Positions 5,363-39,400 of a stretch of 64,000 nucleotides of DNA are shown here, piece after piece. The number at the start of each line of letters is the position of its first letter. Within the stretch, counting starts at the first letter, position 1. A program made the position numbers and the translations under genes. Below the pieces are notes generated by a model, which was given only the letters and a program-made list of their open reading frames with translations, was not told the origin of the DNA and made no database searches. Source of the stretch: Promethearchaeota archaeon (lineage in GTDB: Archaea > Asgardarchaeota > Lokiarchaeia > Sigyniarchaeales > SOKP01); the NCBI GenBank assembly GCA_048940925.1, contig JBHLOC010000009.1, forward strand, positions 45,867-109,866, in the 5' to 3' direction.

Positions 5363-6598
5363 TTAAATTTTCGAAGCTATGAAATCGATAATATCTAGTA
5401 ATTTTATTTTTTCTTTAATCTCCGGTTCCACTTCTTCATATGCATCACTTAAATTTCCAATACAAAACGGGCAGCTGGTTGTTAATATATCTGCTCCTGA
5501 TTCTACGGCTTCTCTAATTCTCTCTTTTGAAATATCTTTTGCTAAATTCGGAAATTGACTCTTCATACCTCCACCTGCTCCACAACACCATGCATGTTTA
5601 CGATTTCTTTTCATTTCAAGCAATTCAACTCCTGGAATTTTTACAATCAGTTCTCTTGGGATCTCATATAAGTTCATATGACGCCCTAGGTGACAAGGAT
5701 CATGATATGTTACTTTTATCTGTTCCTCTTTAGCAGGATCGAAAGGAATTTTGTTATTGTTAATCAAATCAATTAAAACTTCAGTAATATGTTTCACTTC
5801 AAATGGTAATTCTTCTCCTAATAAATCTGGATAATCTTTCTTTAAAGTTCTATAACATCCTGCACAAGCAGTAAATATTGTTTTTGCTCCCATATTCTTA
5901 AAAGTTTCGATATTATGCTTTAAAAGTTCGTCTACCGATTTATAATCACCTATACGAGCTCCAATAGAGCCACAACACCATTCATTTTTCGATAATGCAA
6001 TCTCTATCTCAGATACTGATAATATTTTCATCATACTCTTCAATGTATCAGCTTGTCTTAAAGGCATCGTACACCCTGCAAAAAATACAAGTTCTCCTTT
6101 ATCTTTAATAGCTGGAAATTCTTGAGCCCACTCAAATTTTTTGGCTATATCTTCGCCATAAGGATTTTTAGTATTATCATTGTTCATATATTGAATCAAT
6201 TCTGCGTGTCTATCAAGTGGAGCAAAACCAGCTTCTACTAAGTCTTTCCTCAAGGCATCCCAAACCTTCACATGATCGATCCATTTACTTGTTGGTAATA
6301 TGATATTTTCATTATGTGTCATATGGCAAACTTCTGTACAGTTTCCACATTCAGAACATTTATATATCCACTCCGCGAGTTCTTTACTCAGTGGAATTTG
6401 TCCTTTCAAAATACTCTTTAGTACATTCATTCGACCTCGAGAAAAGTATATTTCAAAACCCTCTTCATCTTTTGCTTCTTTCACAGGACAAGTTAAATAT
6501 CTCCCAACAAAAGGTCTAATGGAAAATCCACAATCTCCGCAATTCATACAGGTAAATATAGCATCCCATTCTTTTTTCAAATTTTTTAATTCACTCAT
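5363..6598 (-). CDS. Fe-S oxidoreductase, GlcF/GlpC/HdrD family
   Basis: CMNCGDC and CSECGNCTEVC 4Fe-4S motifs, two CCG domains, YHDPCHLGR. Confidence 0.9.
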   Translation of the reverse strand: MSELKNLKKEWDAIFTCMNCGDCGFSIRPFVGRYLTCPVKEAKDEEGFEIYFSRGRMNVLKSILKGQIPLSKELAEWIYKCSECGNCTEVCHMTHNENIILPTSKWIDHVKVWDALRKDLVEAGFAPLDRHAELIQYMNNDNTKNPYGEDIAKKFEWAQEFPAIKDKGELVFFAGCTMPLRQADTLKSMMKILSVSEIEIALSKNEWCCGSIGARIGDYKSVDELLKHNIETFKNMGAKTIFTACAGCYRTLKKDYPDLLGEELPFEVKHITEVLIDLINNNKIPFDPAKEEQIKVTYHDPCHLGRHMNLYEIPRELIVKIPGVELLEMKRNRKHAWCCGAGGGMKSQFPNLAKDISKERIREAVESGADILTTSCPFCIGNLSDAYEEVEPEIKEKIKLLDIIDFIASKI

Positions 6599-6602
6599 AT
6601 TA

Positions 6603-8117
6603 TTAATCCCCCCAAAAATTAAATTTTCCTCTACTCAGAATCATATTAGGATCTAGTATTTTCTTGATTGACTTCATTAGATTATAATATTCCTCAGTGT
6701 ATGCACCAATATCAACCATTAAACGAGACATAAAATCTCCCATCATATACCATTGAACACCATGTTTTGTAACTCTTTCTAAAAGTGATTTCCATAATTT
6801 TAAATTCGTTTCTTGAATGACATCATAGTTCTCACCATTAAAATAACTCCAGAAGCTTGTAAAACCACATGTAATTTCTACATTATTACCATCTATTAAT
6901 AATATAGGACCACTTCCAGAAATAGGTCTCATTTTAGTAATATTAAAAATTTTTTGCATATTCTCATTATTTTCCATATCCCATTGATCAATATCGTTCA
7001 GAATTTCTGGATATTTATTTACTGGACAAAAAGATTCAGCTGTTAATGGTTGATTGGATGGTACCAATCCCCATAAATTGTGATAGAATTGCCAATGTCC
7101 TTGTTCAACATAATGCCACTTAGCAATATTACCATCCGAAATTTCTGAACCTACGTTTTCTGCTTTATTACTTATCATGATTTCATCTAATTGTTTTGCT
7201 TTCTCTTCCAATTCTCCTTCAGAATTGGCTTCTATAGTATAAAAAATTAAACCTCTTTTCCTTTTTAAATTCTCATACATGGGCATTAAGCCTTGATCAA
7301 CTCCAATTCTAACAAGTAAATCCATAATATACATTGCATCATAGACATCAATTCCTTTATGTCTAATTTCTGACAAAATTTTTGCTGATACCTCTCTTTC
7401 TTTTCGAGGTAATAAGAATGTTTTATACTCGGCATATTCTGGTTTAGGAAACACTTGTAAAGATACTTTAGTTTTAACACCAAAAATCCCATTATCCCCA
7501 CAGAATAGTCCTGCTAAGTCTGGACCATTACCAAATCGGTTGAATGGGAATTTTGAATATTTATTTGCTTGAGAACCTGTTTCTATAATATCTCCAGTCG
7601 GCAAGACTACTTCTAAAGATACTAATTGATTTGTACAGGCACCATATTTAGCACATCCTCCTCCACCAACTGAATGATGTGAAATACCCCCTCCTATTGA
7701 TGCGGACATGCCTGATCCTGGGCCCATACATCCAGTATAAAGATTAAAATGGCAAAGATATTCATTTAATTTTCCCCAAGATATTCCTGCTTCAACAGTC
7801 ACGATAAGATTTTCCTCATCCAAATTTAGAATATTATTCATTCTTTTCATATCTAATACAATTCCGTTATCTCCAATAGGTTTACTTCCCCCAAACTCAC
7901 ATATTCCTGCTCCACGAGGAATTACAGCAATATTTTCTTCATTAGCAATTTTAAGAATTTCTGAGATTTCTTGTGCATCTTTTGGTCGTATTACTATATC
8001 AGGTATTCCTTGTAAGACTATATCTACATTTCGCGAATAAGCATGACGAACATAAAGGTCATTCGAAAGATACTTTTTCGAGACAATTTTCTCTAATTTT
8101 TGATATAAATCAGACAT
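6603..8117 (-). CDS. FAD-binding oxidoreductase, GlcD/D-lactate dehydrogenase (VAO/PCMH) family
   Basis: PDIVIRP, VIPRGAG, VEAGI, SIGGGIS, LEVVLPTGD, GPDL, DPNMILSRGK. Operonic with the Fe-S subunit. Confidence 0.9.
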   Translation of the reverse strand: MSDLYQKLEKIVSKKYLSNDLYVRHAYSRNVDIVLQGIPDIVIRPKDAQEISEILKIANEENIAVIPRGAGICEFGGSKPIGDNGIVLDMKRMNNILNLDEENLIVTVEAGISWGKLNEYLCHFNLYTGCMGPGSGMSASIGGGISHHSVGGGGCAKYGACTNQLVSLEVVLPTGDIIETGSQANKYSKFPFNRFGNGPDLAGLFCGDNGIFGVKTKVSLQVFPKPEYAEYKTFLLPRKEREVSAKILSEIRHKGIDVYDAMYIMDLLVRIGVDQGLMPMYENLKRKRGLIFYTIEANSEGELEEKAKQLDEIMISNKAENVGSEISDGNIAKWHYVEQGHWQFYHNLWGLVPSNQPLTAESFCPVNKYPEILNDIDQWDMENNENMQKIFNITKMRPISGSGPILLIDGNNVEITCGFTSFWSYFNGENYDVIQETNLKLWKSLLERVTKHGVQWYMMGDFMSRLMVDIGAYTEEYYNLMKSIKKILDPNMILSRGKFNFWGD

Positions 8118-22528: not shown

Positions 22529-25500
22529 TTGCTGAAAATCATTTTAGTGCTGGTTATTATAGTTGGCATTCCTAGCCTTGCTTTAATTTTAGTGAATATT
22601 CGCTATATATCATATATAGATGAAGATGAGGTTCATTCTATAAAAGATAATGCTGCATTTTTTGCATGGAGCCATCAAAATGACGAGGGGTTATTTATTG
22701 AGCCTAAATTAGAACAAAATTTTAGAGCAATTGACTCGATAAACTTCTCTATTGCTGTGGAATATTTTTCCAATTTGGTAAATCCTAACAATATTTCAAA
22801 TGAATATGTAAGGAAATTAAGACCAAATATCTTTTTTGATTATATATTTGAAAAGCAAAACTATGATGGATCATATTCTGATTTTGGAGGACTTGGTAGT
22901 ATGATCTCTACGCATCAAGCAATAAAAACTATTGAAATTGCCAATAAATCATATTTGAATCGTAAGATTCAACAAAATAAAACAGAGAATATTGTAAATT
23001 ATTTAAATAATTCCTTGAAAGAAAATGGAGAAGGATTCAAGTCAATATCCTACTTGAATGAGTCTGATATAATTTCTACTTCTTGTGCAATTGAGTTAGC
23101 AAATACTTTGAATGCGGGTTTTGTTCTCAAGAATCCAAACATTTCTAAATATATTAATGCTACTTGGCTTAGTGGTAGCTATAAATTGACGGATGATGAT
23201 TTGAGTATAGCTACAACAGAAACCACATATTATGGAATAAAGGCATTCTTAGGTATGAATATGACATATACAACTTTAGAGCGAACAGCAATTCAGATAT
23301 ATTTTAGCTCACTTTATAACATTATAGAAGGGGGATTTTCGAATATTCCTGGTGGGAGTTCTACAGTAGAATCAACATATTATGTATTATCCTCATTAAA
23401 CTCATTAAATCTATCATTTCCTTTCTTTGATGAAAATAAAACCTTAGAATTTATTATTAATTGTTCTAACTCAGATGGAGGTTTTGGTTCACGTCCGGGA
23501 TCAGAATATGCTTCAGATTTTACGCCTGGATGGGCTGCAATAAAATCAATTGAGATCCTTAATAAAGAAAACTTAATAAATAATTTTGACACAATTAAGA
23601 AGATATTAAGATATTATGAATGGCTTCATATGTTTCAAGGGAAAAATGCTTTATTTGGTCGTACTACAATTGAAGCTAATTTTTATGGAGTATCAGCTCT
23701 TTACAAGTATAATAAGGTATATATTGACGAAGATTTTATTACAAAAGATACCTTAGAGCATATTTTGCTCTTTGTTGACCAATGTTATAATCAATATGAA
23801 GGTGGTTTTGCATCCACTCCAGGAGAAAACGCAACTCTATATGCAACCTATTGTGGGGTGAATATTTACAATATGCTTTATCCCTCTACTAACAAAATGT
23901 TGGATGAATTTAAAATTGGGAATATAACAAATTATTTGGTTGAGCTCCAGAATTCTGATGGTGGTTTTAAGATCGGGGGTGACGTGGATGTATTATTATC
24001 AATGTATGGTCCATTTCATCAAGTTTTCTTGTATTTTATTAATTCCAACATTTCTACTATGGAAAGCACATATTGGGGGTTATATTCTCTTAATATTCTT
24101 GATGGATTAGCTTTAATTGATAATGTTAATCTGACTCATTGGTTGAGATCATGTCAGAATCCTGATGGAGGATTTTCGATATTTGTGGGATTTCATAGTG
24201 ATGTGATTTCAACTTATTTTGCATTAGAGATATTTTCAAAATTATTAAATTCTGAACCAATGTCAAAAATAGATTCAATCAAATTTCTGAAAAACGCACA
24301 GACTTCTGATGGCTCATTTTCAGTTTTACCTGCCCTTGGAGCCTATTTAGGATTGCCCTCAACATTTTTAGTAACTTATTTTGGTTCAAAAGGTCTTTAT
24401 GATTATAGATTTCAACCAGAAAATATTAGAAATACTTTGAATTGGTTTACTGAATGTATAAGTTCAAATACAGGAGGGGTTGGAGACAATCCAGGATTTG
24501 GAGGAGATCTAAGAAATACTGCTAACGGCATTATTATCATAGATGAATTACAATATGATCGGAGTTTTGATTCTAAACCATGGACTCAGTTATTAATCTA
24601 TATTTTATTTATAGAAGCTGCGGGAATTGCTTTATTTATCATCTTCAAATTGTACCAAAGACTTTCAATTCCTCAGAGAATTAAATTTTTATTAGGAATT
24701 GGTGGAAAACTTAATAGAGCTTATTTAGAAAAATATCCAGCTATTAATTGTGAAAATCTAAGTGTCTTTGCAGGGGGGAAATTAATAGTGGATTCAGTTT
24801 CTATGAATGTAGAGCATGGAAAAATATTAGGAATTTTAGGAGAGAGTGGAGCTGGTAAATCCACTTTCATTAAAGGTTTACTGGGTATGAGAAAAATTAT
24901 AGGTTTTTGTCAAATTTATGGAATGGATATGAATAGAAGAATATCAAGAAGAATCAGACCTATCTATGGTTACGTTCCTCAGGATTTAGGTAAAATATAT
25001 CACAATTTTACTACGCTGGAAAACTTATTATACTTTGGAAATCAATATGGGCTTACCGAGAAAGAAATAATAAGTAAATCTAAAAGAATTTTGCGTAGCT
25101 TAGAAATTGAAGATAAAATGAATGAATTAGTCAAAAATTTATCAGGAGGACAAAAAAGACGTGTTAGTATCGCTATTGGGTTAATTCATTCACCAATGTT
25201 CTTGATATGTGACGAGCCGACCTCGGGTCTTGATCCTGTGGTCAGGGAACATCTATGGCTAGTATTAACAAAGATTAATGAACAGTTTAACACCACATTA
25301 GTAGTTATAACACATTATCCGGAAGAATCAAGATTTTGTAATCTTGTTGCAATATTTGGTCGAAAACGCGGAATGATAGATTTTGGAGAGCCCAAAATGC
25401 TTTTAGGTAATTTACCAGGAAAAGGCAGATCAATTGAAATAGTATTTACCGATATACAAGAGAATATGATAGAAAGACTTGAGGCGATTGATGGAATCGA

Positions 25501-25690
25501 TAAAGTTTTAGAAAACAAAGCAGGTACAGATTTTTCAATATTTACTAATTTAAATATTGATAATCTGGTTGATAAAATTGAAGAAGAGATAGGGAAAGGT
25601 TTAATTAAAGAAATAAATCAAATTGATTCTAAAATGGAACAATATTTCCGCTATAAAGCAATGGAGGTGCCTAAAGTTGAAGAACTCTAG
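22529..25690 (+). CDS. Fusion: TM + prenyltransferase/squalene-cyclase repeat barrel + TM + ABC ATPase
   Basis: Repeated QNxDGGF-type motifs (QNYDGSY, CSNSDGGF, QNSDGGF, CQNPDGGF, QTSDGSF) between two TM helices. Intact GESGAGKST, LSGGQ, DEPTSGLD and ITH. Confidence 0.85.
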   Translation: MLKIILVLVIIVGIPSLALILVNIRYISYIDEDEVHSIKDNAAFFAWSHQNDEGLFIEPKLEQNFRAIDSINFSIAVEYFSNLVNPNNISNEYVRKLRPNIFFDYIFEKQNYDGSYSDFGGLGSMISTHQAIKTIEIANKSYLNRKIQQNKTENIVNYLNNSLKENGEGFKSISYLNESDIISTSCAIELANTLNAGFVLKNPNISKYINATWLSGSYKLTDDDLSIATTETTYYGIKAFLGMNMTYTTLERTAIQIYFSSLYNIIEGGFSNIPGGSSTVESTYYVLSSLNSLNLSFPFFDENKTLEFIINCSNSDGGFGSRPGSEYASDFTPGWAAIKSIEILNKENLINNFDTIKKILRYYEWLHMFQGKNALFGRTTIEANFYGVSALYKYNKVYIDEDFITKDTLEHILLFVDQCYNQYEGGFASTPGENATLYATYCGVNIYNMLYPSTNKMLDEFKIGNITNYLVELQNSDGGFKIGGDVDVLLSMYGPFHQVFLYFINSNISTMESTYWGLYSLNILDGLALIDNVNLTHWLRSCQNPDGGFSIFVGFHSDVISTYFALEIFSKLLNSEPMSKIDSIKFLKNAQTSDGSFSVLPALGAYLGLPSTFLVTYFGSKGLYDYRFQPENIRNTLNWFTECISSNTGGVGDNPGFGGDLRNTANGIIIIDELQYDRSFDSKPWTQLLIYILFIEAAGIALFIIFKLYQRLSIPQRIKFLLGIGGKLNRAYLEKYPAINCENLSVFAGGKLIVDSVSMNVEHGKILGILGESGAGKSTFIKGLLGMRKIIGFCQIYGMDMNRRISRRIRPIYGYVPQDLGKIYHNFTTLENLLYFGNQYGLTEKEIISKSKRILRSLEIEDKMNELVKNLSGGQKRRVSIAIGLIHSPMFLICDEPTSGLDPVVREHLWLVLTKINEQFNTTLVVITHYPEESRFCNLVAIFGRKRGMIDFGEPKMLLGNLPGKGRSIEIVFTDIQENMIERLEAIDGIDKVLENKAGTDFSIFTNLNIDNLVDKIEEEIGKGLIKEINQIDSKMEQYFRYKAMEVPKVEEL

Positions 25691-27422
25691 TGCTTTAAAA
25701 AGAGCTAAATTATTAAAAGAACATCGCAATATTGAATTGGAGCGCCTAAGATTAAAAATTTTAGACGCGATTAGGTTTTCCAGACGTTTTTGGATGACGT
25801 ATAGAGAAAATACTTTTGGTATCGCATCAATTTTGAACTTGATTTATAAAAAATCATTTTTTGAAGTATTATTTTTTACCAATAAAGATGTTATGGAAAA
25901 AGGGGTGCCACTATTAAAAATCTATACCCCAATAGAAGATGAAATTGATTTTAATGAACTTATTGTAGAACCTGATTTTGATGATGATGGTCTCGTTAGT
26001 CCAAGTAAAATTATCGGCCGTATGAGGAAATTAATTCGAAGAGAATTTCAAAAACATCTAGCTCTTCTAGACAATGAGGCGAATTTAATTGATGAAAGAT
26101 TTGAAAATTATATTATCGATAATAATCCCTATCATAGAGAGATAAGAATATCTTATCCCTATTTTGTTATAGAACTAAAGGTAAATTTTGAAAATTATCC
26201 CCTTGTCCCGTCATTGACATTTTCAAAAACCCTTTTAAAAGTTTTAAAAGAAAGAGAATTAAACGAAGAAGAAATTATTAAAAGTTGGAATGAAGTAAAT
26301 CCACCCCATATTTATCAATTAATCGAAAAATTATGTGAACTTGTATCAAGACGTCTTAAAATTGATCAACTAAATGAAGATTCTCAATATTTAGTCATAA
26401 ACAACCTATCTATTGATGAAAGTATTAAGAATGTTTCATTTAAAATCCATAAAGGCAAATCAATAGGGATCATTTTTGAAGATGAACACTTGAAGAATGT
26501 CAGTCATGATTATGATATTTTAAATTTGTTTCAAGTTATTTCTGGTAGTTATTCTGATTTCTCTGGAACTGTTGAAATATTTGGAATACCTATTCAATCA
26601 TTAGGTAAAAAGGAAAAAAAGAGTATTTTTATTTTACCTCAAGCATATGAATCGAAAATCCTAAATATGAAAATTAAGAAGGCAATCCATTATGGTATAG
26701 ATATTAAAGAAATTATTAAACAGAAAAAATCTATTATAAACCAAATTTTAAAACAAGCAGGAATTACACCTAAATTAGATGAAGTTATGAGTGATTTATT
26801 TGCAAAAGCAGTGATGAGAATGATTTTCAAAAAAAGAGCTTTTATTAATAGTGCTTTAGAAGATACAGGATTATTAAATAAAAAAAATAAAAAATTTTCA
26901 AGAGTAACACAATTAGAATTTCTCTTATTTTCAATTGGAAGAGCTTTACTTCAATCACCCTCCATAATTATGTTTTTAATACCATTAATAATTTTAGATC
27001 GACTTGAATATGAAAAATTTAATAATTATATAGAGAAAATTAAAAAAGAATTCCGTGTGATCCTATTATTTCATGGTCCTGAAGGAATAGTATCCAATTG
27101 TGATCAGATATTGACTATTAGGAAAGATGAATCTAAAATTGGAACATATAATAGATTAATAGAAGAATTACCTCAATCAGGAGAGATAATAACAATTGAA
27201 TTGAATAACCCTGATCGAAATTTGATAAAAAAACTTTTTAAATTTGAGGAAATAGCTAAAATCAAAGAAGAAAGAAAGAATGAAAAATATAAATTATTTT
27301 TAAAGTCTGACCCAAATAAGATGGTAATTCGAATAATAGAATTATTTGGGCAATATCTCTATAGTTTTAAAAGACATAAAGCCTCTTTGGGGGATTATTT
27401 GGAATTTTTTGAAGGTACATAA
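25677..27422 (+). CDS. UBC/RWD-like domain fused to a degenerate ABC ATPase-like domain
   Basis: TTG start after GGAGGTG. ELKVNFENYPLVPSLTF...SWNEVNPPHIYQLIEKL is UBC/RWD-like. The ABC scaffold remains (NVSFKIHKGKSIGI, IGRALLQSPSII) but Walker A, signature and Walker B are lost. Confidence 0.6.
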   Translation: MKNSSALKRAKLLKEHRNIELERLRLKILDAIRFSRRFWMTYRENTFGIASILNLIYKKSFFEVLFFTNKDVMEKGVPLLKIYTPIEDEIDFNELIVEPDFDDDGLVSPSKIIGRMRKLIRREFQKHLALLDNEANLIDERFENYIIDNNPYHREIRISYPYFVIELKVNFENYPLVPSLTFSKTLLKVLKERELNEEEIIKSWNEVNPPHIYQLIEKLCELVSRRLKIDQLNEDSQYLVINNLSIDESIKNVSFKIHKGKSIGIIFEDEHLKNVSHDYDILNLFQVISGSYSDFSGTVEIFGIPIQSLGKKEKKSIFILPQAYESKILNMKIKKAIHYGIDIKEIIKQKKSIINQILKQAGITPKLDEVMSDLFAKAVMRMIFKKRAFINSALEDTGLLNKKNKKFSRVTQLEFLLFSIGRALLQSPSIIMFLIPLIILDRLEYEKFNNYIEKIKKEFRVILLFHGPEGIVSNCDQILTIRKDESKIGTYNRLIEELPQSGEIITIELNNPDRNLIKKLFKFEEIAKIKEERKNEKYKLFLKSDPNKMVIRIIELFGQYLYSFKRHKASLGDYLEFFEGT

Positions 27423-29074: not shown

Positions 29075-30436
29075 ATGAAAAAGATAATTAAAACAGAAAA
29101 TATAACTTTAACAACTATTCTTCTTCTTTGTATATGTTTATTTACACTAAATAGATTTATTAAGGTTAATCCTACTGAAACTTCAATTCAAGAGGATAGA
29201 TTAAAGATTAGCGCTTTGCCTTTAGAAAATTATAGTATGACTCCAGGAACTCCATATAATTGGATAGACGCTTCGGGTGGAACAGAGTTAGTTTTAGCTG
29301 ATGATGGTTATGCTACAATATTATTACCCTTTACTTTTACTTTTTATAATCAAACGTTTTCAACAGTATATTTAAGTGCAAATGGATATCTTAGTTTTAC
29401 AGATACTACACCTGATTATTTTGATAATATTCCATTTCCCACAGATTATCCATACTTTACATATATGGTTGCCCCATTTTGGGATGATATATACCCCCCA
29501 GATGGAGGTCATATCTATGTTCAATCATTTGGTACTTATTGGGTGGCTGAATGGTTAGATATTTATCATATTGACGGACCCATACTAGGATCATTTGAAG
29601 TAGTTTTATATGAAACAGGTCAAATCCAGTTTAACTATGATTATATTGATTATATTGAACCCTATAGTGGTTATACATGTGGTTTAAATTTAGGAGAGAA
29701 CATAGATTATTATAATACATATCTTGGTTTAGACAATTCAACTGATGATTTTTCAATTCTTTTCAATCCTGAAAGTATAAACGTTATTACTCCTGATAAA
29801 TCTAGTGTATGGGAAGTCTTCACTGTAGAGCAAATCATTTGGAGCTCAACAAGCAATGTTTCAAATGTAAAAATTGAACTTTATAAAAAAGGTGTATTTG
29901 AAAGGGAAATTGCTGCAAATATAGCTAGTATTGGTGTATATTCTTGGAATATATCCTCCGGTTTGAATGATTCTGACCAATATCAAATAAAAATCTCTGA
30001 CGCTTCTAACCCTTTAACTTATGATTATTCCCCAAATTTCGAAATATTCAATCCAACTTTCACAATTATTACTCCTAACAGTTCCAGTCTTTGGGTAACC
30101 GATAAACCTCAAGAGATTAATTGGACATCAAGAGGTACTATTCCAAAAGTAAAAATCGAGCTTTATAAAGAAGATATTTTTGAAATGGAAATAGCTCGAG
30201 GTCTAACTAACAACGGTAAGCTTATTTGGGTAGTTCCTAAAGGGCTTCAAACATCTGAAAAATATCAGGTAAAAATCATAGATGATTCCAATCCTTCTGT
30301 TTTCAGTTTTAGTGATTATTTCAAGATAAAGAAAGCTACAAGTGCAATTCCAGGATACTCAGTGTTTGTATTGATAGGCTTAGTTGGCATAATCTCAGTA
30401 ATACTGTTTAAAAAAAGATTAAAATTAATAAAATAA
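29075..30436 (+). CDS. Cell-surface protein: nidogen-like domain + two Ig-like repeats + Loki-CTERM tail
   Basis: Signal/TM; LPFTFTFY...SANGYLSF...APFWDD; two ITP..W....I.W.S...VKIELYK repeats; AIPGY + TM + KKR. Confidence 0.8.
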   Translation: MKKIIKTENITLTTILLLCICLFTLNRFIKVNPTETSIQEDRLKISALPLENYSMTPGTPYNWIDASGGTELVLADDGYATILLPFTFTFYNQTFSTVYLSANGYLSFTDTTPDYFDNIPFPTDYPYFTYMVAPFWDDIYPPDGGHIYVQSFGTYWVAEWLDIYHIDGPILGSFEVVLYETGQIQFNYDYIDYIEPYSGYTCGLNLGENIDYYNTYLGLDNSTDDFSILFNPESINVITPDKSSVWEVFTVEQIIWSSTSNVSNVKIELYKKGVFEREIAANIASIGVYSWNISSGLNDSDQYQIKISDASNPLTYDYSPNFEIFNPTFTIITPNSSSLWVTDKPQEINWTSRGTIPKVKIELYKEDIFEMEIARGLTNNGKLIWVVPKGLQTSEKYQVKIIDDSNPSVFSFSDYFKIKKATSAIPGYSVFVLIGLVGIISVILFKKRLKLIK

Positions 30437-30440
30437 ATCC

Positions 30441-30451
30441 CTTTTTTTTTT
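30441..30451 (+). terminator. Poly-T archaeal terminator
   Basis: Long T run immediately after the stop codon of 29075..30436. Confidence 0.5.
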
Positions 30452-30676
30452 ATTTCTATATATAATATACCTATTTCAGAAGTAGAGTTCCTTTATATTG
30501 ATATTTTGAGAAAAACTAAAGTTATATTTTTATATTGCAGTATTTTTCAAAATTGTTTTAACTCTTATCTTTTATTCAGTAACCACATATTTGTTATAAG
30601 AAAAATTCATCTCACGTTTGAATAAAATATGAGAAAATTTAATATTCTGTACTTAATTTTCCCAAATATCAAATAT

Positions 30677-30684
30677 TTTATATA
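30677..30684 (+). promoter_or_regulatory. Candidate TATA box for the oxidoreductase operon
   Basis: TTTATATA about 40 nt upstream of ATG 30724; the AT-rich background weakens the call. Confidence 0.35.
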
Positions 30685-30723
30685 AAATCAAACATAGAAA
30701 GATAAACTAAAAGGTTGGAAATA

Positions 30724-32240
30724 ATGAGCTATAAATTACCGGATGAAAAAGATCTGGAAGCCATGATAGGCATTGTTGGTAAGGAATACGCTTCAAATAA
30801 CAAAGCAATTACAGCATCGTACCTGGCGAAATCAGTGATGGGTTTAGAAATCAATTATCCCAAAGCGGGTAATGACTAAATAGCCAAATCCCTGATATCG
30901 TCGTTCGACCAAAATACGTTGAAGAAATTCGTAAAATTCTTGTATACTGTTCTCAAGAAAAAATAGCAGTAAGCCCTGTTTCTGGTGGATTATCTGGCGG
31001 ATTCTCGTGCCCAACAATAAAACCTGGTGGAGTTCTTCTTGATTTAGGAAGAATGAAAAGAATAATTGAAATTGATGAAGAAAATCGATTTGCAATTGTA
31101 GAACCTGGAGTAACTATTGGAGAACTGTGGGCATATATGCATAAGAATACTCCTGACTGGGCACCACCAATACCAGATGGAGCTCCACCAGCATCTACAG
31201 TTATGGGAGATGCCATTGATAGGGGGTTTTCATTATACACATCTAGTGTAGGGCCCCAGGGAGACAACTTTATGTGCGCTGAAGTTGTGTTTGCAAATGG
31301 TGACGTTTTAAGGACTGGCTCATGGGCATTACCAACTGCGAAACCATTCTATAAATATGGACTTGGTCCTGATTTATGGTCTTTTTTGATGGGTAGTCAA
31401 GGAACTATGGGCGTAATCACAAAAGTAGCTGTAAAGATTTATCCACATCCCGAATTTAAAACAGTAGTTGTGTGGGGCATGTCAAATCCTTATGATATGC
31501 AGAATCTAACATTGGAAATCCAAAAACAGGAATTTGGAATAGCACATAATGCAGTTATGGTACAAGGCGGGAATTATCCTTTAGTAATGACTCGATGGCC
31601 AAAGGATAAGGTTCCTCATGATTATAAGTTTTATGAAGAGATGGGAATCAGCCAATGGTGGATGAATTTTGAATGCTGGGCTCAAACACAAGAAGAATTA
31701 GACTATGTAATAAAAAGAATTGATGAGATGGGAAATGATTATAAAAAGAATAGAGCTAAAGACCCTGACTCAATAGTACCTCAGAAACTTCATCCAAAAC
31801 AAATAGCAAGCAGATTAAAAAAGCCAAATAAAATTGCTGTTCCGTATGGTCTATGGGATGCGGGATTTTTATTTATTACATGGTATACTCCCTGGCCAGA
31901 ATGTGCCCATTTTTGTGAAATGTATTGTGCCGCAATGGAGAAATATGGTTTTCCTCCTACGATGTGGGTTGCTTCAATTGAACGTGGTCGACAAGCAATT
32001 TGTATGCCGATTGTGTGTTTCGATAGCACAAAGCCTGAAGAATTAGAAAGAGTTCAAGAATTGAATAGAGAAACTACTGAATATGGTCTAAAGCAAGGAT
32101 GGCTTAACTACAGACCTGATCCATACATTCATATTAAAGCCTATTACCAATCAGGAATGTATTGGAAATACTTGCGAGCAATTAAAAAAATATTAGATCC
32201 AAATGGAATATTGCATCCAGGAAGACTTGCTCTTCCATAA
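30724..32240 (+). CDS. FAD-binding oxidoreductase (GlcD/VAO family), split: exon1 30724-30849 + exon2 30882-32240, 494 aa joined
   Basis: Exon1 is MSYKLPDEKDLEAMIGIVGKEYASNNKAITASYLAKSVMGLE. Exon2 is SQIPDIVVRPK...GGVLLDLGRM, running in frame into ORF 31053..32240 (VEPGVT, GPDL, GSQGTMG, DPNGILHPG). Confidence 0.88.
30850..30881 (+). other. Putative 32-nt bulge-helix-bulge mRNA intron
   Basis: Central helix TTAG(30844-47)/CTAA(30876-79); 3-nt bulges AAA(30848-50) and ATA(30880-82); stems on both sides; removal restores the frame. Confidence 0.82.
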
Positions 32241-32260
32241 TTAAAGGAGGTTGATAAATA

Positions 32261-33682
32261 TTGGCTAAAACAGGAATGGAAAGATTGGAAGAATTAAAAA
32301 AAGATATATTTAAATGTATCCATTGTAAAGCTTGTAAATTTGCCTATTCCAATGAACCTAACAGGGAAGGTATTGGAGAATATACTGGAAAGCAAGGTAC
32401 AGTTCTTTATGAAGGGATGGTAGACGCATGTCCAGCAGGAATTGAATATGGTTGGGAAGCCTTCTGGAATGCGGGTAAAATGTGGATTGCACGTTCGATT
32501 TTAAATGGAGATTTAGAATTTAGTGAAGAAGTTCGAGATGTCATTTTACCATGTATTACATGTGGTCAATGTTCCGCTCAATGTGAAAATAAAGTTCGTA
32601 CCGTTGATATAATTGAATCTTTAAGAGCAGCGTGTATAGAATCTGGGGTACCTATGATTGAGAAGCATCAATTAGTAGATAGATTGGTTAAAGAATTGAA
32701 CAATCCCTATGGAGGAAAAGCCGAGGAACGATTTAAATGGGCTAAAGATGCAGGTTTAGAAAAATACATTGATAACAAAGATGCAAAAATTGCTTATTAT
32801 GTAGGCTGTACTGCCAGTTATCGTCAAGTAGAAGTTGCTATTGCAACTGCTAAACTTTTTGAGCAATTAGGAATGAATTTTACTATTATAACTGATGAGG
32901 TATGTTGTGGAAGTCCTTTTTTTAGAATAGGGGCGGTTGAAACTGCACAGGAATTAATGAAGAAAAATCTTGAATCATTTAAAAATATAAAAATGATATA
33001 TTTTTCTTGTGCTGGGTGTTATCGAACGTTTACCATCGATTACCCTAAATGGATGGTTGAAGGAGAAAAGCTTCCTTTTAAAACACAGCACGCATTTGAA
33101 CTTGTTGCGAGACTAATCCAGCAAGAAAAAATAAAATTCAAACCAAACAAGGAATTGAAAGGAAAGGTCGTTACATATCATGATCCTTGTCACACTGGAA
33201 GACATTTCGCAGTGGACATGGAACAAGATATAATCGAAAAATCGGAGAATCTTTTGATGGACCATCGAAAAATAAGGGAGGCAATTGAAGCTTGGTATGA
33301 AGTTCCACGGATTATTCTTAGAAAACTTGAAGAAGATGTAGGAATTATTTTCAAAGAGATGTATCGTATAAAATTGGATAGTATGTGTTGTGGAGCTGGT
33401 GGAGGTGTTCGCGCGGGATATCCCGATTTTTCACTACGCACCGCAAGTCTTCGGTGCGATGAAGCAAATGCGGTTGGTGCGGATATCTTAACGACTGAGT
33501 GCCCATTTTGTTGGAGAAATTTATCAGATGCGAATGATCTGTATAATCACGGCATGATTGTTATGGGAGTTCTTCAGATGATTACAGAATATAATCTGTT
33601 GGATATTGTAGTAAAGCCTACAGAAAAAGATTTTATGATTCCATCTATTCGAGAAGAGATGGAAGAAAAACCAAAAAAATGA
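32261..33682 (+). CDS. Fe-S oxidoreductase, GlcF/GlpC/HdrD family
   Basis: CIHCKAC, CITCGQCSAQC, two CCG domains, YHDPCH; GGAGG RBS upstream. Confidence 0.9.
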   Translation: MAKTGMERLEELKKDIFKCIHCKACKFAYSNEPNREGIGEYTGKQGTVLYEGMVDACPAGIEYGWEAFWNAGKMWIARSILNGDLEFSEEVRDVILPCITCGQCSAQCENKVRTVDIIESLRAACIESGVPMIEKHQLVDRLVKELNNPYGGKAEERFKWAKDAGLEKYIDNKDAKIAYYVGCTASYRQVEVAIATAKLFEQLGMNFTIITDEVCCGSPFFRIGAVETAQELMKKNLESFKNIKMIYFSCAGCYRTFTIDYPKWMVEGEKLPFKTQHAFELVARLIQQEKIKFKPNKELKGKVVTYHDPCHTGRHFAVDMEQDIIEKSENLLMDHRKIREAIEAWYEVPRIILRKLEEDVGIIFKEMYRIKLDSMCCGAGGGVRAGYPDFSLRTASLRCDEANAVGADILTTECPFCWRNLSDANDLYNHGMIVMGVLQMITEYNLLDIVVKPTEKDFMIPSIREEMEEKPKK

Positions 33683-33913: not shown

Positions 33914-35410
33914 ATGAAAAAAAAAAAAGTAATTCCAATTATAGCGTTAGTGATTATTGCTGCCTTAGTTATTACTTTAGTCATACTTTTTATTCCATTT
34001 GGAGGACCCCCTACACCAAGTGCTAGAAAAGCAATTATAGTCAGTAGTGCGAACGATTTTCAAAAAAGTGAGGGGGAAGATGATTTCAATGATAGTGATG
34101 ATGCAAATTTTAGTGCTGAATCAGGAAGATGGATTGAGAATGCCACTAATGGATATATAGGACAGGATAATGATCTTGGTCCTGATGGTAATCCAGGTAT
34201 TGTAAAATTAATTGCTAATGTTTTCCCAGATCCAACTGGTTATACCCACATTGAATATGTATATAATTGGACAAAATATTATCCAATTTACACATATGCT
34301 ATATACAATCTTTCTGCTTGGGTGAAAATATTAAATCAAACGGGAAATGCAACCTATATAGGTTCACCAGGAGCTAGAATAGGATTACGATGGTTAAATT
34401 CCAATAATAGTATAATAAGAACGGATTGGTCTAAAGGAATAATTGATACGGAAGGAACATGGGTATATTTAAATATTACAGGTATATGTGATGGTTCTAC
34501 TATCAATAAAATAACTCAGCTGCATTTAGTTTTAGCTTTTGAGGGTAATGTAAGTCAAGGTGATATGGTGTGGTATGATGATGTGAGAGTTGAGCGATGG
34601 ATTTCGGTTAATGTAACAAATCCTATAAATCCGATTCCTCCTCCAGGTAGCATAGATTCAGATGGATTTCCTGCACAAGCCCTCCAAGTTTATTGGATCT
34701 TGAAGCATCACGGGTATTCCGATAAGAATATATTTTTAATGTTGTATCATAAAAATGATAATATAATTGATATAAATGCGAAAGATGGTATAACAAACGA
34801 TTTAACAGGGGCTATTATTGATGTGGAGAATGACGATGTTAAAGCTAGTAGATTCAAACAAGAATTAAATGTTTCAATCAAGGGGTCATTTGCTTCCAGT
34901 ATCAAGGCAAAAGATCAATTGATAATTTATGTGGTAGATCATGGATCGAATAAGATAGCTGGTGAGGGTAATGCTACCTTTCATTTTGAAGCAGATGATA
35001 GTTACATCACTGAAACAGAATTTTATAATTTAGTCAAAGAAATTGATTGTGAACGTATGCTGATTAATATTGATATCTGTTTCAGTGGTAATTTTTTAAA
35101 TATAAATTCAAACATAGGACAAAGTTGGTATGATATACCTAATTCAATTCTCATCACTTCAACTACAGATATTTTCTCTTGGTATTGGCGTGATAATAGT
35201 AATCCTGATGGTTTTGCAGGTTCTTGGTTCTTTCATACATTTTGGGATCAATTAAATCAGAGTGAATCGATACAGGAGGCATTTGATTATGCTAAGAATT
35301 ATATTCCCGCAAGACAAAAGATTCCTATTATTCAAATACAAAGCCCTTTAATAAAAGATAATTTAGGAATTAAAGACTCTTGGAGTTTTAGTAGCATTCC
35401 TCAATTGTAG
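33914..35410 (+). CDS. Membrane-anchored clan CD (C13 legumain/GPI8-like) cysteine peptidase with inserted CBM-like domain
   Basis: N-terminal TM; YWILKHHGYSDKNIFLM; catalytic-type VVDHG and IDICFSG; jelly-roll insert (YNLSAWVK...VWYDDVRV). Confidence 0.72.
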   Translation: MKKKKVIPIIALVIIAALVITLVILFIPFGGPPTPSARKAIIVSSANDFQKSEGEDDFNDSDDANFSAESGRWIENATNGYIGQDNDLGPDGNPGIVKLIANVFPDPTGYTHIEYVYNWTKYYPIYTYAIYNLSAWVKILNQTGNATYIGSPGARIGLRWLNSNNSIIRTDWSKGIIDTEGTWVYLNITGICDGSTINKITQLHLVLAFEGNVSQGDMVWYDDVRVERWISVNVTNPINPIPPPGSIDSDGFPAQALQVYWILKHHGYSDKNIFLMLYHKNDNIIDINAKDGITNDLTGAIIDVENDDVKASRFKQELNVSIKGSFASSIKAKDQLIIYVVDHGSNKIAGEGNATFHFEADDSYITETEFYNLVKEIDCERMLINIDICFSGNFLNINSNIGQSWYDIPNSILITSTTDIFSWYWRDNSNPDGFAGSWFFHTFWDQLNQSESIQEAFDYAKNYIPARQKIPIIQIQSPLIKDNLGIKDSWSFSSIPQL

Positions 35411-36418: not shown

Positions 36419-39400
36419 TTGGCTAATGTGCAACAGAAATCTGCTTATCCATATATTACTGAATTCAAAAAAGAACCTTTCATTTCTTTTATTTTTATCA
36501 AACAAAAAGATATTGGGAACATTTATTTAAGTAACTATAATGAACTAATTAAGTTCTACGAATTTTTTAAGGATAACTTATTAAGTGCTTCAAATTTAAC
36601 ACTAGAAAATATTTTTTGGTTTTTATTATTAAAAAAATATCTCAAAAATAAAAAGAAGATAAAGAAGGATGCAATTTTTAATTTCATTAAGAAATGCGAA
36701 ATTCATCAAAATGAAAGATTAGGCTTTAAACTATCTTCTAATATACAAAAAATCCCTGATATCTACTCAACATATTTAGCATTAGCGTGTTTGAAAAATT
36801 TGGGATTTTTAGAAGAGTATTTGTCCTCTGAAAATATTAAGTCAGATATTAAAAACTTTATTTTATCACATGAAAAGAAAAATGCTTTTAAGCACTGTCA
36901 TAATGAGCAATGTGCTATATGTAAAAAAATCTCGCCTGCAAGAACCTTATTTTTTGTACTTGAAATTTTCACACTTATAGGAATTGATGTGCGTTTAAAA
37001 AGAGATCAATTTATGGCGTTTTTTAATGATAATAGTAAAAAAGGTTATGGTTTGATTTTTAAATTACTTTGCCAAAAATATTTAGATTTAGATTCTGAGG
37101 TTAAGGAAAAGGAAGTCCAATATCTTTATCAATTTCAAAATGAAAGTGGTGGTTTTAGTTTAAATCATCTTGGAGTTATTAATGACACTTTTTGGATTGT
37201 ATATGTTCTTAACTTATATTCATGGTTTTTGGATTATAATCCTGCTGGAATATTTCCCTTTATCAATAATAAATTAAATGAGATTCTGATGAGTCAACCA
37301 AATTGGAATGCTTTCAAATTAAATGATGTATCAAAGTTAATAATTCTTTTATCATTTATTTGGAAAAAGTTTATTGACTCCGTAGAAAGAACATTATTTA
37401 AGCAAATTGAGAAGGATAAATATATTGATTTAATTCAATTAAAAACTACTTTTGGTTTATTTAACGATGTTGAAGATATTTTATCATATATTAATCTTAA
37501 CTATAATTTTAAATTAAGAATTTTAGATAATAAAATCGAATTTAATAATTTTCTAAGAAATTTAAGTCAAGGAAGACAAGAATTCATTAAAGAATTTTAT
37601 GATCAAATTAATAAAAATAGTGTTGTTTCTCTTTCTGCGCTTCATAAGAAATATAAAACTTTAAACTATGAACCATTAAAACTGAGAGAAAATATCTTTC
37701 CTATTATTAAAGAAATGGTCAGGAGAAATTTTTTCAAAGGAAATATTAAAGCTAAGAAAAAATTTTTATCAAAAACAAGATTTCTTTTTTATTTGGATTA
37801 TATGTTAAAAAAAATAATCGTTTGTGACTCTGAGATTAATACTGAGAGAATTTTAGATGAAAAAGAGAAATTAACTGATATTAAGAATGATATCTACAAT
37901 ATGACTTTAAAATTGAAAAAAATTGATCTTCAAATAAAAGAAGAAATTGAGAGTTATCTTTTGATTAATGAATTTGACTACTCTAAACAAAGATTAAAAT
38001 TTATTATAAGAGATGCTTTAATGGAAGCTGATTTTTTAAATGAAAATATTGAAAATTCTTTTAATGAAATTTTATATTATATCAACTTTCAAGCAGTATT
38101 AAAGTCAGAGATTGCAGAATGGGAGCAGATTTATTCTATCTTACCAAAGAAGTTAGGAGAAATTGAAGCATATCTAAAAGGGAAAATACAAGAAAAAGAA
38201 GAGCTAAGAAATTTAAGTGTTGTTTTAGATAACTTAAAGGAAAAAATTATAATATTAGAAGAAGATTTAAATAAAAAGTTTGATATTTTTAGAAACATCT
38301 TTAGGGAAGTCTTAGAAAAAGAGTATAGTGATAAGAATTTTAATCTTATTATTAAAGAATTAGAAATATTAACTCAAAAAGTTAGAAAATATGATAGCTT
38401 AATTTATAAAGTCTCTCAACAAATAAAATCAAAAGAAAGGAAAATTGTTAAAAAACATAAGAAAGTAATTAATAACTGGATAAAAGTTAAAGAAAAATTC
38501 GAAAATGAGTTCAATTTTTACACAGATGGTTTTCAATTTTTTAATAAAAAATTAAATGAAATTAAAGATATAAAAGAAAGAGTTAATACTCATATTTCTG
38601 AAATTGGTGAAAATGCTAAAGTTAAAATTGATTCAAATCAATTTCAAGAAGCGTTTGGTTTTATTAAAAAAGAATCTGATTTATTATTAACTGAAAAAAT
38701 AAATGAAATTAAAGATCTTCATGGTATAATTAAAAATGAGATAAAGCAAAATCAAAAGCTCTTTATATTATATAAGCATTTACATGAAAAACTCAATGAT
38801 TTAGAGTCTTATATAATTGATTTGATTGCAAAACAGGTTCAAACCCTTAAGAATAAAGTCATAGAGGAGAGAAATAGAACTAAAATAGAGGTTTTTGATA
38901 ATTTAGCAAAACAAGAAATTCTCAAATTTAAATCCAAATTGACAGAGATCAGAAATTATTTTAACCAAATAGATGATTTAAAGATTGAGATTGTAATAAA
39001 AGAATGTGACTCTTTAAATTCAGATTTTGAAAAAGCTAGTAAATTATATTTGAAAAAATTAAGTGAATGTCAAAAAGAAATCGAAGATTTTGACGAGAAA
39101 TCAAAATTAACTATTATGCAATGGGAAAAATTTACTATTTTTTTTAATAATGAAATTTTGGTCTTGAAAGAAGATTTTATAAATAATATCATTGCAAACA
39201 AAGTTAGTTCCATGGTAATTGAGAAAAAAACGGATTGTATTGATCTTCTTGACCTTAAGAAGGAGTTAAAACTTTCATGTAAAGTATTGATTAATAAATT
39301 AAAAGATATTATTGATATTTCAAAAATAAATGCAAAACTTGATGAAGACGATAAATCACTCTTGGTTTTTACTGATTTCTATTACTCAAATAAAGAACTT

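What the first reader, a model, noticed from the sequence alone, without database searches (positions are those of the whole stretch)
30831..30896. Canonical bulge-helix-bulge intron inside a protein-coding gene of an Asgard archaeon
Seen in sequence: the GlcD-family gene starts at ATG 30724 and hits TAA at 30877-79 after 51 aa. The conserved PDIVVRP region resumes in another frame at 30882. The 32 nt in between (ATCAATTATCCCAAAGCGGGTAATGACTAAAT) fold with the flanks into an hBHBh' motif. The exon stem is T30843.G30883, G30842-C30884 and G30841-C30885, extended by GAT30837-39/ATC30888-90 and ATCAG30831-35/CTGAT30892-96. The central 4-bp helix is TTAG30844-47/CTAA30876-79, with 3-nt bulges AAA30848-50 and ATA30880-82. 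The inner stem is TCA/TGA plus TTATCC/GGGTAA. Established: archaeal EndA cuts after the second nucleotide of each bulge and RtcB ligates. Here that gives cuts at 30849|30850 and 30881|30882, removing exactly 32 nt. The join GAA|AGC yields ...SVMGLE-SQIPDIVVRPK and a 494-aa protein, close in length and spacing to the intact in-window paralog (504 aa, ...DIVLQGIPDIVIRPK). The archaeal mRNA BHB introns I know of are mainly in crenarchaeal cbf5. Inference: this Asgard lineage splices a metabolic mRNA with its tRNA-splicing machinery, reminiscent of non-spliceosomal splicing such as IRE1/RtcB in eukaryotes.
Basis: partly seen in the sequence, partly recalled or inferred. Interest (0 to 1): 0.95.

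Follow-up and report, generated by a model that had tools for sequence, protein, structure and literature searches.

The report
tRNA-type mini-intron in Asgard enzyme gene
A 32-base insert that breaks an FAD-dependent oxidoreductase gene of an Asgard (Promethearchaeota) archaeon has exactly the RNA shape that the tRNA-splicing enzymes cut. Relatives without the insert read exactly the predicted spliced sequence, so the mRNA is very probably spliced, which papers confirm inside an archaeal coding sequence for only one gene (cbf5).

Summary
A 32-nt insert (30850-30881) with an in-frame TAA splits a 494-codon VAO/PCMH-type flavoprotein gene. With its flanks it forms a strict hBHBh' motif.

In the two sets searched (they share some genomes), 14 related loci carry the insert at this site. 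All other orthologs (25 of 30, and 55 of 66) lack it and read ...MGLE|SQIPD..., which is exactly the predicted ligation product.

Both exons are under strong purifying selection in intron-bearing genomes (omega 0.05-0.11). The insert itself does not evolve like coding sequence. Synonymous sites inside the exon-exon helix are frozen (1 of 14 variable, against 64% elsewhere).

The genome encodes a catalytic and a beta-like EndA subunit plus RtcB. Its only aIF2-gamma gene is broken by a similar 30-nt insert.

New here: four mosaic tracts of 100-270 nt centred on the site show the intron was gained and lost by recombination. One relative has a different 32-nt BHB insert 15 nt downstream.

No RNA data exist for this locus, so splicing is inferred, not seen. 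This scan had already found this intron in orthologs and similar introns in other genes. I found no paper on them in Asgard archaea.

The parts
30724..30849 (+). Exon 1: 42 codons, MSYK...SVMGLE
   Evidence: The same 42-aa N-terminus is found in all intronless congeners. Among intron-bearing genomes dN is 0-0.06 against dS 0.3-1.9.
30850..30881 (+). 32-nt BHB intron. It carries TGA (30873-75, exon-2 frame) and TAA (30877-79, exon-1 frame).
   Evidence: It is absent from 25 of 30 and 55 of 66 orthologs, which join exactly at this point. Ten sequence variants keep the shape, and their changes are not codon-like.
30882..32240 (+). Exon 2: 452 codons plus stop, with an FAD_binding_4 domain starting at residue 4 and a VAO/PCMH-type C-terminal part
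   Evidence: Omega is 0.05-0.11 among intron-bearing genomes. The first ATG/GTG/TTG in this frame is at 31053, which is 57 codons into the domain.
30844..30847 (+). Central 4-bp helix H, 5' strand (UUAG, exonic); pairs with 30876-30879
   Evidence: Read from the sequence. Invariant in all 10 variants.
30876..30879 (+). Central helix H, 3' strand (CUAA, intronic; contains the TAA stop)
30848..30850 (+). Bulge 1 (AA|A); predicted 5' cut between 30849 and 30850
   Evidence: The rule of cutting after the second bulge nucleotide is stated for cbf5 in PMC2738675. The cut agrees with the intronless orthologs.
30880..30882 (+). Bulge 2 (AU|A, or AG|A in relatives); predicted 3' cut between 30881 and 30882
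30851..30875 (+). Inner hairpin h': 30851-53 with 30873-75, 30855-60 with 30867-72, loop 30861-66
   Evidence: MFE fold. One-sided changes U.G to U-A and C-G to U.G keep the pairing, and most variable columns lie in the loop.
30826..30843 (+). Exonic 5' strand of the outer helix h and its extension (GCGA, AUCAG, GAU, GGU)
   Evidence: Synonymous sites here are almost invariant in intron-bearing genomes and variable in intronless ones.
30883..30901 (+). Exonic 3' strand of the outer helix h and its extension (GCC, AUC, CUGAU, UCGU). The Ser codon is AGC/AGU in intron bearers and mostly UCN in intronless congeners (AGC/AGU also occurs there).
32261..33682 (+). Partner gene 21 nt downstream: an HdrD/GlcF-like Fe-S protein with two 4Fe-4S motifs and two CCG domains
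5363..8117 (-). Intronless paralogous pair in the window: a 504-aa flavoprotein (6603-8117) and a CCG Fe-S protein (5363-6598)

Best explanation
The 32 nt at 30850-30881 are a genuine archaeal bulge-helix-bulge intron inside the coding sequence of a VAO/PCMH-type FAD oxidoreductase.

Proposed mechanism:
1. In the primary transcript the two exon edges pair with each other. This outer helix extends to about 15 bp over 30826-43 and 30883-901.
2. The last four exon-1 bases before the bulge pair with the intron's CUAA.
3. The rest of the intron folds into a hairpin.
4. This presents two 3-nt bulges to the heteromeric (alpha-beta)2 splicing endonuclease, which cuts after the second base of each bulge.
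5. RtcB joins GAA to AGC. That restores ...SVMGLE-SQIPDIVVRPK... and a 494-aa enzyme. The intron is released, probably as a 32-nt circle.

Without splicing, only a 51-aa peptide can be made from the first start. No start codon exists before codon 58 of exon 2.

Shown here: the motif, its exact register, the intronless orthologs, selection on both exons, and the presence of the enzymes. Inferred: the cleavage and ligation themselves.

The intron spread and was removed between lineages by homologous recombination of short patches around the site.
For: 1. The geometry is strict hBHBh', and the BHB conformer lies within 0.7 kcal/mol of the MFE. The chance of such a motif at one of the two admissible placements is about 2e-4.
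2. All intronless orthologs read ...MGLE|SQIPD..., which is exactly the predicted product. They are 25 of 30 loci from related genomes and 55 of 66 further loci.
3. The insert sits at the identical site in 14 loci, with 10 distinct sequences.
4. Among intron bearers, exon 2 has omega 0.05-0.11 at dS 0.2-2.2, and exon 1 has dN 0-0.06 against dS 0.3-1.9. Both frames are therefore maintained across the break.
5. The 10 variable intron columns fall 4/4/2 on codon positions 1/2/3, and the hypothetical peptide changes at 6 of 9 residues. The stop-containing central helix is invariant.
6. In the 44 exonic nt of the outer helix, 1 of 14 third codon positions varies. The figures are 305 of 479 in the rest of the gene and 12 of 14 in intronless congeners (Fisher p = 2e-5).
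7. The genome encodes an EndA with the Tyr/His/Lys catalytic residues, a second paralog lacking the Tyr and His, and RtcB. PMC5829648 reports (alpha-beta)2 EndA with the broad-specificity loop in Asgard archaea.
8. The same genome's only aIF2-gamma gene is split by a 30-nt stop-containing insert inside GHVDHG-K-TTL. An AIR-synthase-like gene carries a textbook 30-nt BHB insert.
9. One relative (L115) has a different 32-nt BHB insert 15 nt downstream. Its removal gives the same protein.
Against: - No spliced RNA, circular intron or junction peptide has been seen for this gene.
- Covariation is statistically uninformative. The variants are 96% identical, and 271 of 500 shuffles reach the observed score.
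- The frozen exon flanks could partly reflect recent co-transfer of the patch rather than selection for pairing.
- The contiguous outer helix next to the bulge is only 3 bp, one of them G.U.
- RNAfold's MFE opens the A/U-rich central helix.
- One outer-helix pair (G30837-C30890) is broken in 4 of 10 variants.
Confidence: 0.85

Rival explanations
1. Translational recoding. The ribosome either bypasses the 32 nt (as in T4 gene 60 or the mitochondrial byp elements) or shifts frame near 30876, so that one protein is made from unspliced mRNA.
For: A stable hairpin and a stop codon lie in the gap, as in known bypass sites. PMC2738675 notes that cbf5 introns were once mistaken for frameshift sites.
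Against: - There is no matching take-off and landing codon. GAA at 30847-49 is followed by AUC, and the codon before AGC is AAU or AAG.
- A frameshift would have to occur in the single base between the TGA at 30873-75 and the TAA at 30877-79. It would add about 11 residues that orthologs lack and that evolve without coding constraint.
- The exact BHB register, the frozen exon-exon helix and the second BHB insert in L115 have no role in this model.
Confidence: 0.04
2. Inactivated gene. The insert is a disruptive insertion, and the two halves are a decaying pseudogene or make two separate, partly functional products.
For: The reading frame is formally broken. Ten further distant paralogous loci of the family exist in the genome, so loss could be tolerated.
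Against: - Omega is 0.05-0.11 for exon 2, and exon 1 is conserved, across intron-bearing species with saturated synonymous divergence.
- There are no secondary lesions in 14 loci.
- No start codon exists in the exon-2 frame before codon 58, inside the FAD-binding domain.
- The nearest paralog is only 38% identical, so this is the only copy of the ortholog.
Confidence: 0.03
3. A real RNA-level intron, but its removal is conditional. Splicing would gate the expression of this flavoprotein/Fe-S module. An alternative version has it processed by machinery other than EndA/RtcB.
For: The long exon-exon helix (about 15 bp) exceeds what the endonuclease needs and could act as a switch. An intronless paralogous module lies in the same window. 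A 5'UTR BHB intron in Haloferax seems important for efficient expression of its gene (PMC7714728).
Against: Nothing here bears on regulation. Intron-less and intron-bearing alleles replace each other freely among close relatives. That argues against an indispensable regulatory role.
Confidence: 0.07
4. Assembly or sequencing artefact.
For: The genomes are metagenome-assembled.
Against: The insert is present in 14 loci drawn from several assemblies and studies, with 10 sequence variants; two loci come from one co-assembly study. It is also bridged by unitigs in three variants in a public run, with no joint lacking it.
Confidence: 0.005

Closest known systems
BHB intron in the cbf5 (aCBF5 pseudouridine synthase) pre-mRNA of Crenarchaeota (Watanabe 2002; Yoshinari 2006; Yokobori 2009, PMC2738675)
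   Same: A short intron inside a coding sequence, with BHB-type exon-intron boundaries and cuts after the second bulge base. The host has a heteromeric (alpha-beta)2 endonuclease. The distribution among relatives is patchy, with inferred gains and losses.
   Different: The host gene differs (a metabolic flavoprotein, not an RNA-modification enzyme) and so does the phylum (Promethearchaeota/Asgard). The motif here is the strict canonical hBHBh', whereas PMC2738675 describes most cbf5 motifs as unconventional. Here the gains and losses can be traced to recombination tracts of 100-270 nt. cbf5 splicing has cDNA and in vitro support; this intron has none yet.
BHB intron in the 5' UTR of Haloferax volcanii HVO_1309 (PMC7714728)
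   Same: An mRNA substrate of the tRNA splicing endonuclease, outside tRNA and rRNA.
   Different: That intron lies in an untranslated leader and breaks no reading frame. The Haloferax case was confirmed in vivo and in vitro.
Archaeal pre-tRNA introns at 37/38 and other positions
   Same: The same motif, the same predicted enzymes and a similar size. ARAGORN calls an intron in 22 of 34 tRNA genes of this genome; the calls were not checked. Asgard tRNA genes are reported as heavily interrupted (PMC11291895; bioRxiv 10.64898/2026.10.13.758758).
   Different: The exons encode protein, so the cut sites must also keep the reading frame. The outer helix is built from codons, which constrains synonymous sites.
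IRE1/RtcB splicing of HAC1/XBP1 mRNA in eukaryotes
   Same: Non-spliceosomal, protein-catalysed mRNA splicing. A small frame-changing intron (26 nt in XBP1) is removed, and the ends are joined by an RtcB-type ligase in animals.
   Different: The endonuclease is unrelated (IRE1 cuts two stem-loops, not a BHB), and that system is a regulated stress switch. This is an analogy only; nothing here shows descent or regulation.

Membership tests
Archaeal bulge-helix-bulge (BHB) intron spliced by EndA/RtcB | Two 3-nt bulges on opposite strands, separated by a 4-bp helix | tested here: met
   UUAG 30844-47 pairs with CUAA 30876-79; the bulges are 30848-50 and 30880-82. The helix is invariant in 10 variants. 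The BHB conformer is at -21.7 against an MFE of -22.4 kcal/mol.
Archaeal bulge-helix-bulge (BHB) intron spliced by EndA/RtcB | Flanking outer (h) and inner (h') helices, i.e. the strict hBHBh' form | tested here: met
   The outer helix is 3 bp next to the bulge, extended to about 15 bp. The inner helix is 3+6 bp.
Archaeal bulge-helix-bulge (BHB) intron spliced by EndA/RtcB | Cutting after the second base of each bulge gives the functional mature sequence | tested here: met
   The predicted join GAA|AGC gives MGLE-SQIPD. All intronless orthologs read this.
Archaeal bulge-helix-bulge (BHB) intron spliced by EndA/RtcB | The host encodes a splicing endonuclease and an RtcB ligase | tested here: met
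   There are two EndA paralogs over the TIGR00324 cut-off, one with the catalytic Tyr/His/Lys residues and one lacking Tyr and His. RtcB scores 556 bits.
Archaeal bulge-helix-bulge (BHB) intron spliced by EndA/RtcB | A spliced junction or circular intron is seen in RNA, or the endonuclease cleaves in vitro | not testable with these tools
   No RNA holder is listed for the locus.
cbf5-type pre-mRNA intron of Crenarchaeota | The host gene is cbf5 and the intron sits at the catalytic Asp codon | tested here: not met
   The host is an FAD_binding_4 flavoprotein. It works like the cbf5 intron but is not a member of that orthologous intron.
Programmed translational bypass (T4 gene 60 / byp type) | Matching take-off and landing codons flank the gap, with a stop directly after take-off | tested here: not met
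   GAA is followed by AUC. The codon before the resumed frame is AAU/AAG, not GAA.
Group I / group II intron or IS/MITE insertion | A ribozyme core or transposase/RT, or terminal inverted repeats with a target-site duplication | tested here: not met
   The insert is 32 nt. There is no Rfam family in the window at gathering score, no direct repeat at the borders and no second copy in the genome.
GlcD (glycolate oxidase subunit D) equivalog | A score over the NCBIfam TIGR00387 cut-off | tested here: not met
   The score is 99 bits against a cut-off of 568. Full-length matches are to p-cresol methylhydroxylase flavoprotein (1wve, 1dii), and N-terminal-domain matches are to vanillyl-alcohol oxidases. 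The superfamily (FAD_binding_4, VAO/PCMH) is met.

The most novel reading that the evidence does not exclude
Promethearchaeota (Asgard archaea) routinely splice protein-coding mRNAs, essential ones included, with the tRNA-splicing endonuclease and RtcB. Their roughly 30-nt mini-introns behave as a dynamic population that is gained, lost and passed between lineages by short recombination tracts. This would give the closest archaeal relatives of eukaryotes an intron-exon gene structure and an intron presence/absence polymorphism that owe nothing to group II introns or a spliceosome.
Probability: 0.75. Interest if true: 0.85.

Novelty: new member of a known kind. Interest (0 to 1): 0.72.

Why it matters
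Papers I could search confirm endonuclease-mediated splicing inside an archaeal coding sequence only for cbf5 of Crenarchaeota. One further case lies in a 5' UTR, in Haloferax (PMC7714728, PMC2738675). None describes it in Asgard archaea.

If this intron is spliced, gene prediction for these genomes is systematically wrong at such sites, because genes are called as fragments or pseudogenes. The lineage nearest to eukaryotes would then depend on protein-catalysed mRNA splicing, even for a translation initiation factor.

The locus is also a good natural experiment. Closely related genomes differ only by a 100-270-nt patch with or without the intron. That shows how such introns spread and disappear, and it offers matched alleles for testing splicing and its cost.

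Tried and rejected
- **RNA evidence.** No RNA holder is listed for window 30300-32300, so expression and splicing could not be examined. Only DNA contigs could be laid.
- **Covariation.** Counts on 5 and on 10 variants do not exceed the shuffles (307/500 and 271/500). The sequences are too alike, so this test says nothing either way.
- **Covariance model.** A model of the intron plus flanks found only the locus itself in the genome; the next hit has E = 6.7. The intron is not a repeated sequence family.
- **Genome-wide scan.** I scanned for the strict motif and tested whether removal merges two ORFs. This gave 1252 passes, against 1150 and 1249 for decoy cuts shifted by one base. Gene-to-gene junctions in A/T-rich spacers swamp the signal. 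The scan recovered this intron and the C30 case, and it missed relaxed ones such as aIF2-gamma. It therefore cannot count introns.
- **Relaxed scan of the window.** It found no second convincing intron.
- **Other RNA genes.** There are no tRNA genes or Rfam families in the window.
- **Literature.** PMC3064391 (Tocchini-Valentini 2011) is not held, so its statements on BHB motifs in mRNAs could not be checked.
- **Readings considered and rejected.** Assembly artefact, pseudogene, bypass or frameshift, and mobile-element insertion; see the rival explanations and the membership test.
Full report
**What is in the sequence**

The gene starts at ATG 30724. After 42 codons (…SVMGLE, GAA at 30847-49) the frame runs into 32 nt that end the reading with TAA at 30877-79. 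The conserved sequence SQIPDIVVRPK… resumes at 30882 in another frame and runs 452 codons to the stop at 32238-40.

The exon-2 frame is closed by TGA at 30873-75. Its first ATG/GTG/TTG is at 31053, which is 57 codons into the FAD-binding domain; that domain begins at residue 4 of exon 2. Unspliced, the gene can therefore give only a 51-aa peptide or a protein without the start of its cofactor domain.

RNAfold of 30826-30901 gives -22.4 kcal/mol (z = -3.7). It returns the long exon-exon helix, including a further GCGA/UCGU extension, and the intron hairpin. The complete BHB conformer costs only 0.7 kcal/mol more.

The arrangement matches archaeal pre-tRNA: outer helix, 4-bp helix, bulge and inner helix on the 5' strand; inner helix, 4-bp helix, bulge and outer helix on the 3' strand. 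Cuts after the second bulge base remove exactly 30850-30881. The cutting rule is stated in PMC2738675.

**Is it more than chance?**

A strict motif (3+4+3 contiguous pairs) occurs 114,918 times over 9.6 million positions and 107 lengths in this genome, or 1.1e-4 per position and length. Comparison with intronless orthologs fixes the insert to two equivalent placements. One of them is the BHB prediction, so the coincidence has a chance of about 2e-4.

**Comparative evidence**

- **Related genomes.** The exon-2 protein matched in 33 of 40 relatives searched. Thirty orthologous loci, the window's own included, were examined. Five congeneric genomes (G000, G005, G014, G018, G003) carry a 32-nt insert at the identical site. 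The other 25 have no insert and read …ATGGG-TTAGA-|-TC/AG-CA-AT…, that is MGLE|SQIPD, exactly the predicted ligation product.
- **Species-representative genomes.** A scan of these genomes gave nine further intron-bearing loci, some from the same genomes, and 55 intronless ones. The record titles name them Promethearchaeota, including Loki_b32. This supports the Asgard assignment.
- **DNA reads.** Unitigs of a public sediment run bridge the insert in three variants, and none lacks it. It is therefore genomic and not an assembly error.

**The gene is alive in intron-bearing genomes**

Among the five, exon 2 has omega 0.05-0.11 at dS 0.2-2.2. Exon 1 has dN 0-0.06 at dS 0.3-1.9. Both frames have been kept through long divergence although the DNA frame is broken. 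The nearest paralog in the genome is 38% identical, so no intact spare copy exists.

The insert does not evolve like codons. Its ten variable columns fall 4/4/2 on codon positions 1/2/3 of the exon-1 frame. The hypothetical peptide changes at six of nine residues. The 4-bp helix, which contains the stop, and bulge 1 never vary. This argues against read-through by frameshifting. A bypass is unlikely because there is no matching take-off and landing codon.

**RNA-structure signal**

Covariation proper is uninformative. The ten distinct variants are 96% identical, and shuffles reach the observed score in 271 of 500 trials. The changes that do occur in stems mostly keep the pairing: U.G to U-A, C-G to U.G twice, G-C to G.U, and one A-U to U-A. 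One outer pair is broken in four variants.

A stronger signal comes from synonymous sites in the 44 exonic bases that form the outer helix:

| Comparison | Third codon positions that vary |
|---|---|
| Outer-helix bases, five intron bearers | 1 of 14 |
| Rest of the gene, same genomes | 305 of 479 (Fisher p = 2e-5) |
| Adjacent 120 nt, same genomes | 25 of 40 |
| Same columns, intronless congeners | 12 of 14 (random sets of five: mean 10.5, minimum 7) |

The serine codon after the junction is AGC, or AGU once, in intron bearers. This codon pairs with GGU of exon 1. In intronless congeners it is mostly UCN, although AGC/AGU also occurs.

**Gain and loss by recombination (new here)**

On the gene tree the intron needs at least five changes, four of them forced by well-supported branches. 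Pairwise profiles show why.

- **Two losses.** Two intronless genes (L050, which is G021, and L054) sit inside the main intron-bearing clade. Each is almost identical to an intron-bearing neighbour, with 0-2 differences per 30 nt. The exception is a tract of about 135-240 nt around the site with 5-13 differences per 30 nt.
- **Two gains.** Two intron-bearing genes in otherwise intronless clades (L063, which is G003, and L067) show the opposite. They match the main intron clade for about 270 and about 100 nt around the site (0-4 differences per 30 nt). Elsewhere they match their own neighbours.

That makes four independent mosaic tracts, two importing the intron and two replacing it with an intronless patch. 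Precise deletion from a spliced copy is not the route, because the intronless patches differ at many synonymous sites, including AGC versus UCA.

Two caveats apply. The frozen flanks may partly reflect this co-transfer rather than selection for pairing. And strain-chimeric metagenome assembly cannot be fully excluded, although it would have to occur four times in different studies.

**A second, independent intron**

Locus L115 lacks the insert at this site. It has a different 32-nt insert 15 nt downstream, with central helix CCCG/CGGG and bulges AUA and AAA. Removing it at the predicted cuts again gives …MGLESQIPDIVVRPK….

**Machinery and genomic context**

The genome encodes two EndA-family proteins, both over the TIGR00324 cut-off, and RtcB. 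One EndA protein (197 aa) has the Tyr/His/Lys catalytic residues. The other (200 aa) lacks the Tyr and the His. I read this as an (alpha-beta)2 enzyme. That is the type with broad substrate range reported for Asgard archaea (PMC5829648) and linked to cbf5 splicing (PMC2738675).

Following leads from earlier notes of this scan, I checked two other genes myself.

- The only aIF2-gamma gene over the family cut-off (C68) is interrupted inside GHVDHG-K-TTLVKAL by a 30-nt stop-containing insert with a relaxed BHB.
- An AIR-synthase-like gene (C30:66095-66124) has a textbook BHB with an 11-bp outer and a 9-bp inner helix.

An organism whose initiation factor needs such an excision must splice mRNA.

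**What the enzyme is**

Pfam finds FAD_binding_4 plus a weak FAD-oxidase_C match. The GlcD models score far below their cut-offs. The best solved relatives, aligned over the full length, are p-cresol methylhydroxylase flavoproteins; vanillyl-alcohol oxidases match over the N-terminal FAD-binding part only. The gene 21 nt downstream encodes an HdrD/GlcF-like Fe-S protein with CCG domains. An intronless paralogous pair lies at 5363-8117.

**Comparison with what is known**

PMC7714728 (2020) states that only one BHB intron in an mRNA, cbf5, had been reported, and it adds a 5' UTR case in Haloferax. PMC2738675 says introns in other protein genes were predicted but not confirmed. Five full-text searches found no paper on BHB introns in Asgard protein genes. 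Recent work treats only their tRNA introns.

This locus works like the cbf5 intron but is not that intron. The host gene and the phylum differ, the motif is the strict form, and the route of gain and loss can be traced.

This scan has already reported the same intron in orthologs from other genomes, and similar introns in many genes of this and other Asgard genomes. One of those notes reports spliced environmental RNA for another gene. I could not test that.

**Verdict**

Confidence that this is an RNA-level BHB intron removed by EndA and RtcB is about 0.85. The missing piece is direct RNA or biochemical evidence.

Noticed in passing
L115:571-602 (uncultured archaeon SRP239594_co1_176, contig CAYZTE010000007.1): The ortholog lacks the intron at the window's site. 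It carries a different 32-nt BHB-like insert 15 nt downstream (central helix CCCG/CGGG, bulges AUA and AAA). Removing it restores MGLESQIPDIVVRPK.
   Followed up: partly
G000:C68:44680-45936 (minus strand), outside the window: The only aIF2-gamma gene over the TIGR03680 cut-off is interrupted inside the GHVDHG-K-TTLVKAL P-loop. The 30-nt insert carries stops and has a relaxed BHB (3 of 4 central pairs).
   Followed up: partly
G000:C30:66095-66124 (plus strand), outside the window: A textbook 30-nt BHB insert (11-bp outer helix, 9-bp inner helix) lies in an AIR-synthase-like gene. Removal merges 157 and 301 codons into one 470-codon open frame.
   Followed up: partly
L050, L054, L063, L067 (orthologous loci), CDS nt about 30-315 around the intron site: There are four mosaic tracts of 100-270 nt centred on the intron site. 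Two bring the intron into intronless lineages and two replace it with an intronless patch. This is recombination-mediated intron gain and loss.
   Followed up: yes
window 22529-25690 (+) and 25623-27422 (+): A 1053-aa ORF combines prenyltransferase alpha-alpha toroid repeats with an ABC-transporter ATPase domain. It overlaps the next same-strand ORF by 68 nt; that ORF is 599 aa and has no Pfam family. A 1466-aa ORF at 36419-40819 also has a prenyltransferase-toroid match.
   Followed up: no
window 33914-35410 (+): A 498-aa ORF with a peptidase C13 (legumain-like) domain lies directly downstream of the flavoprotein/Fe-S pair.
   Followed up: no
window 29075-30436 (+): The upstream neighbour is a 453-aa predicted surface protein with Kre9/KNH-like Ig domains, a NIDO-like region and a C-terminal hydrophobic anchor.
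   Followed up: no
whole genome G000: ARAGORN finds only 34 tRNA genes and calls an intron in 22 of them. The low count suggests that many tRNA genes are too interrupted to be detected. The intron calls were not checked.
   Followed up: no
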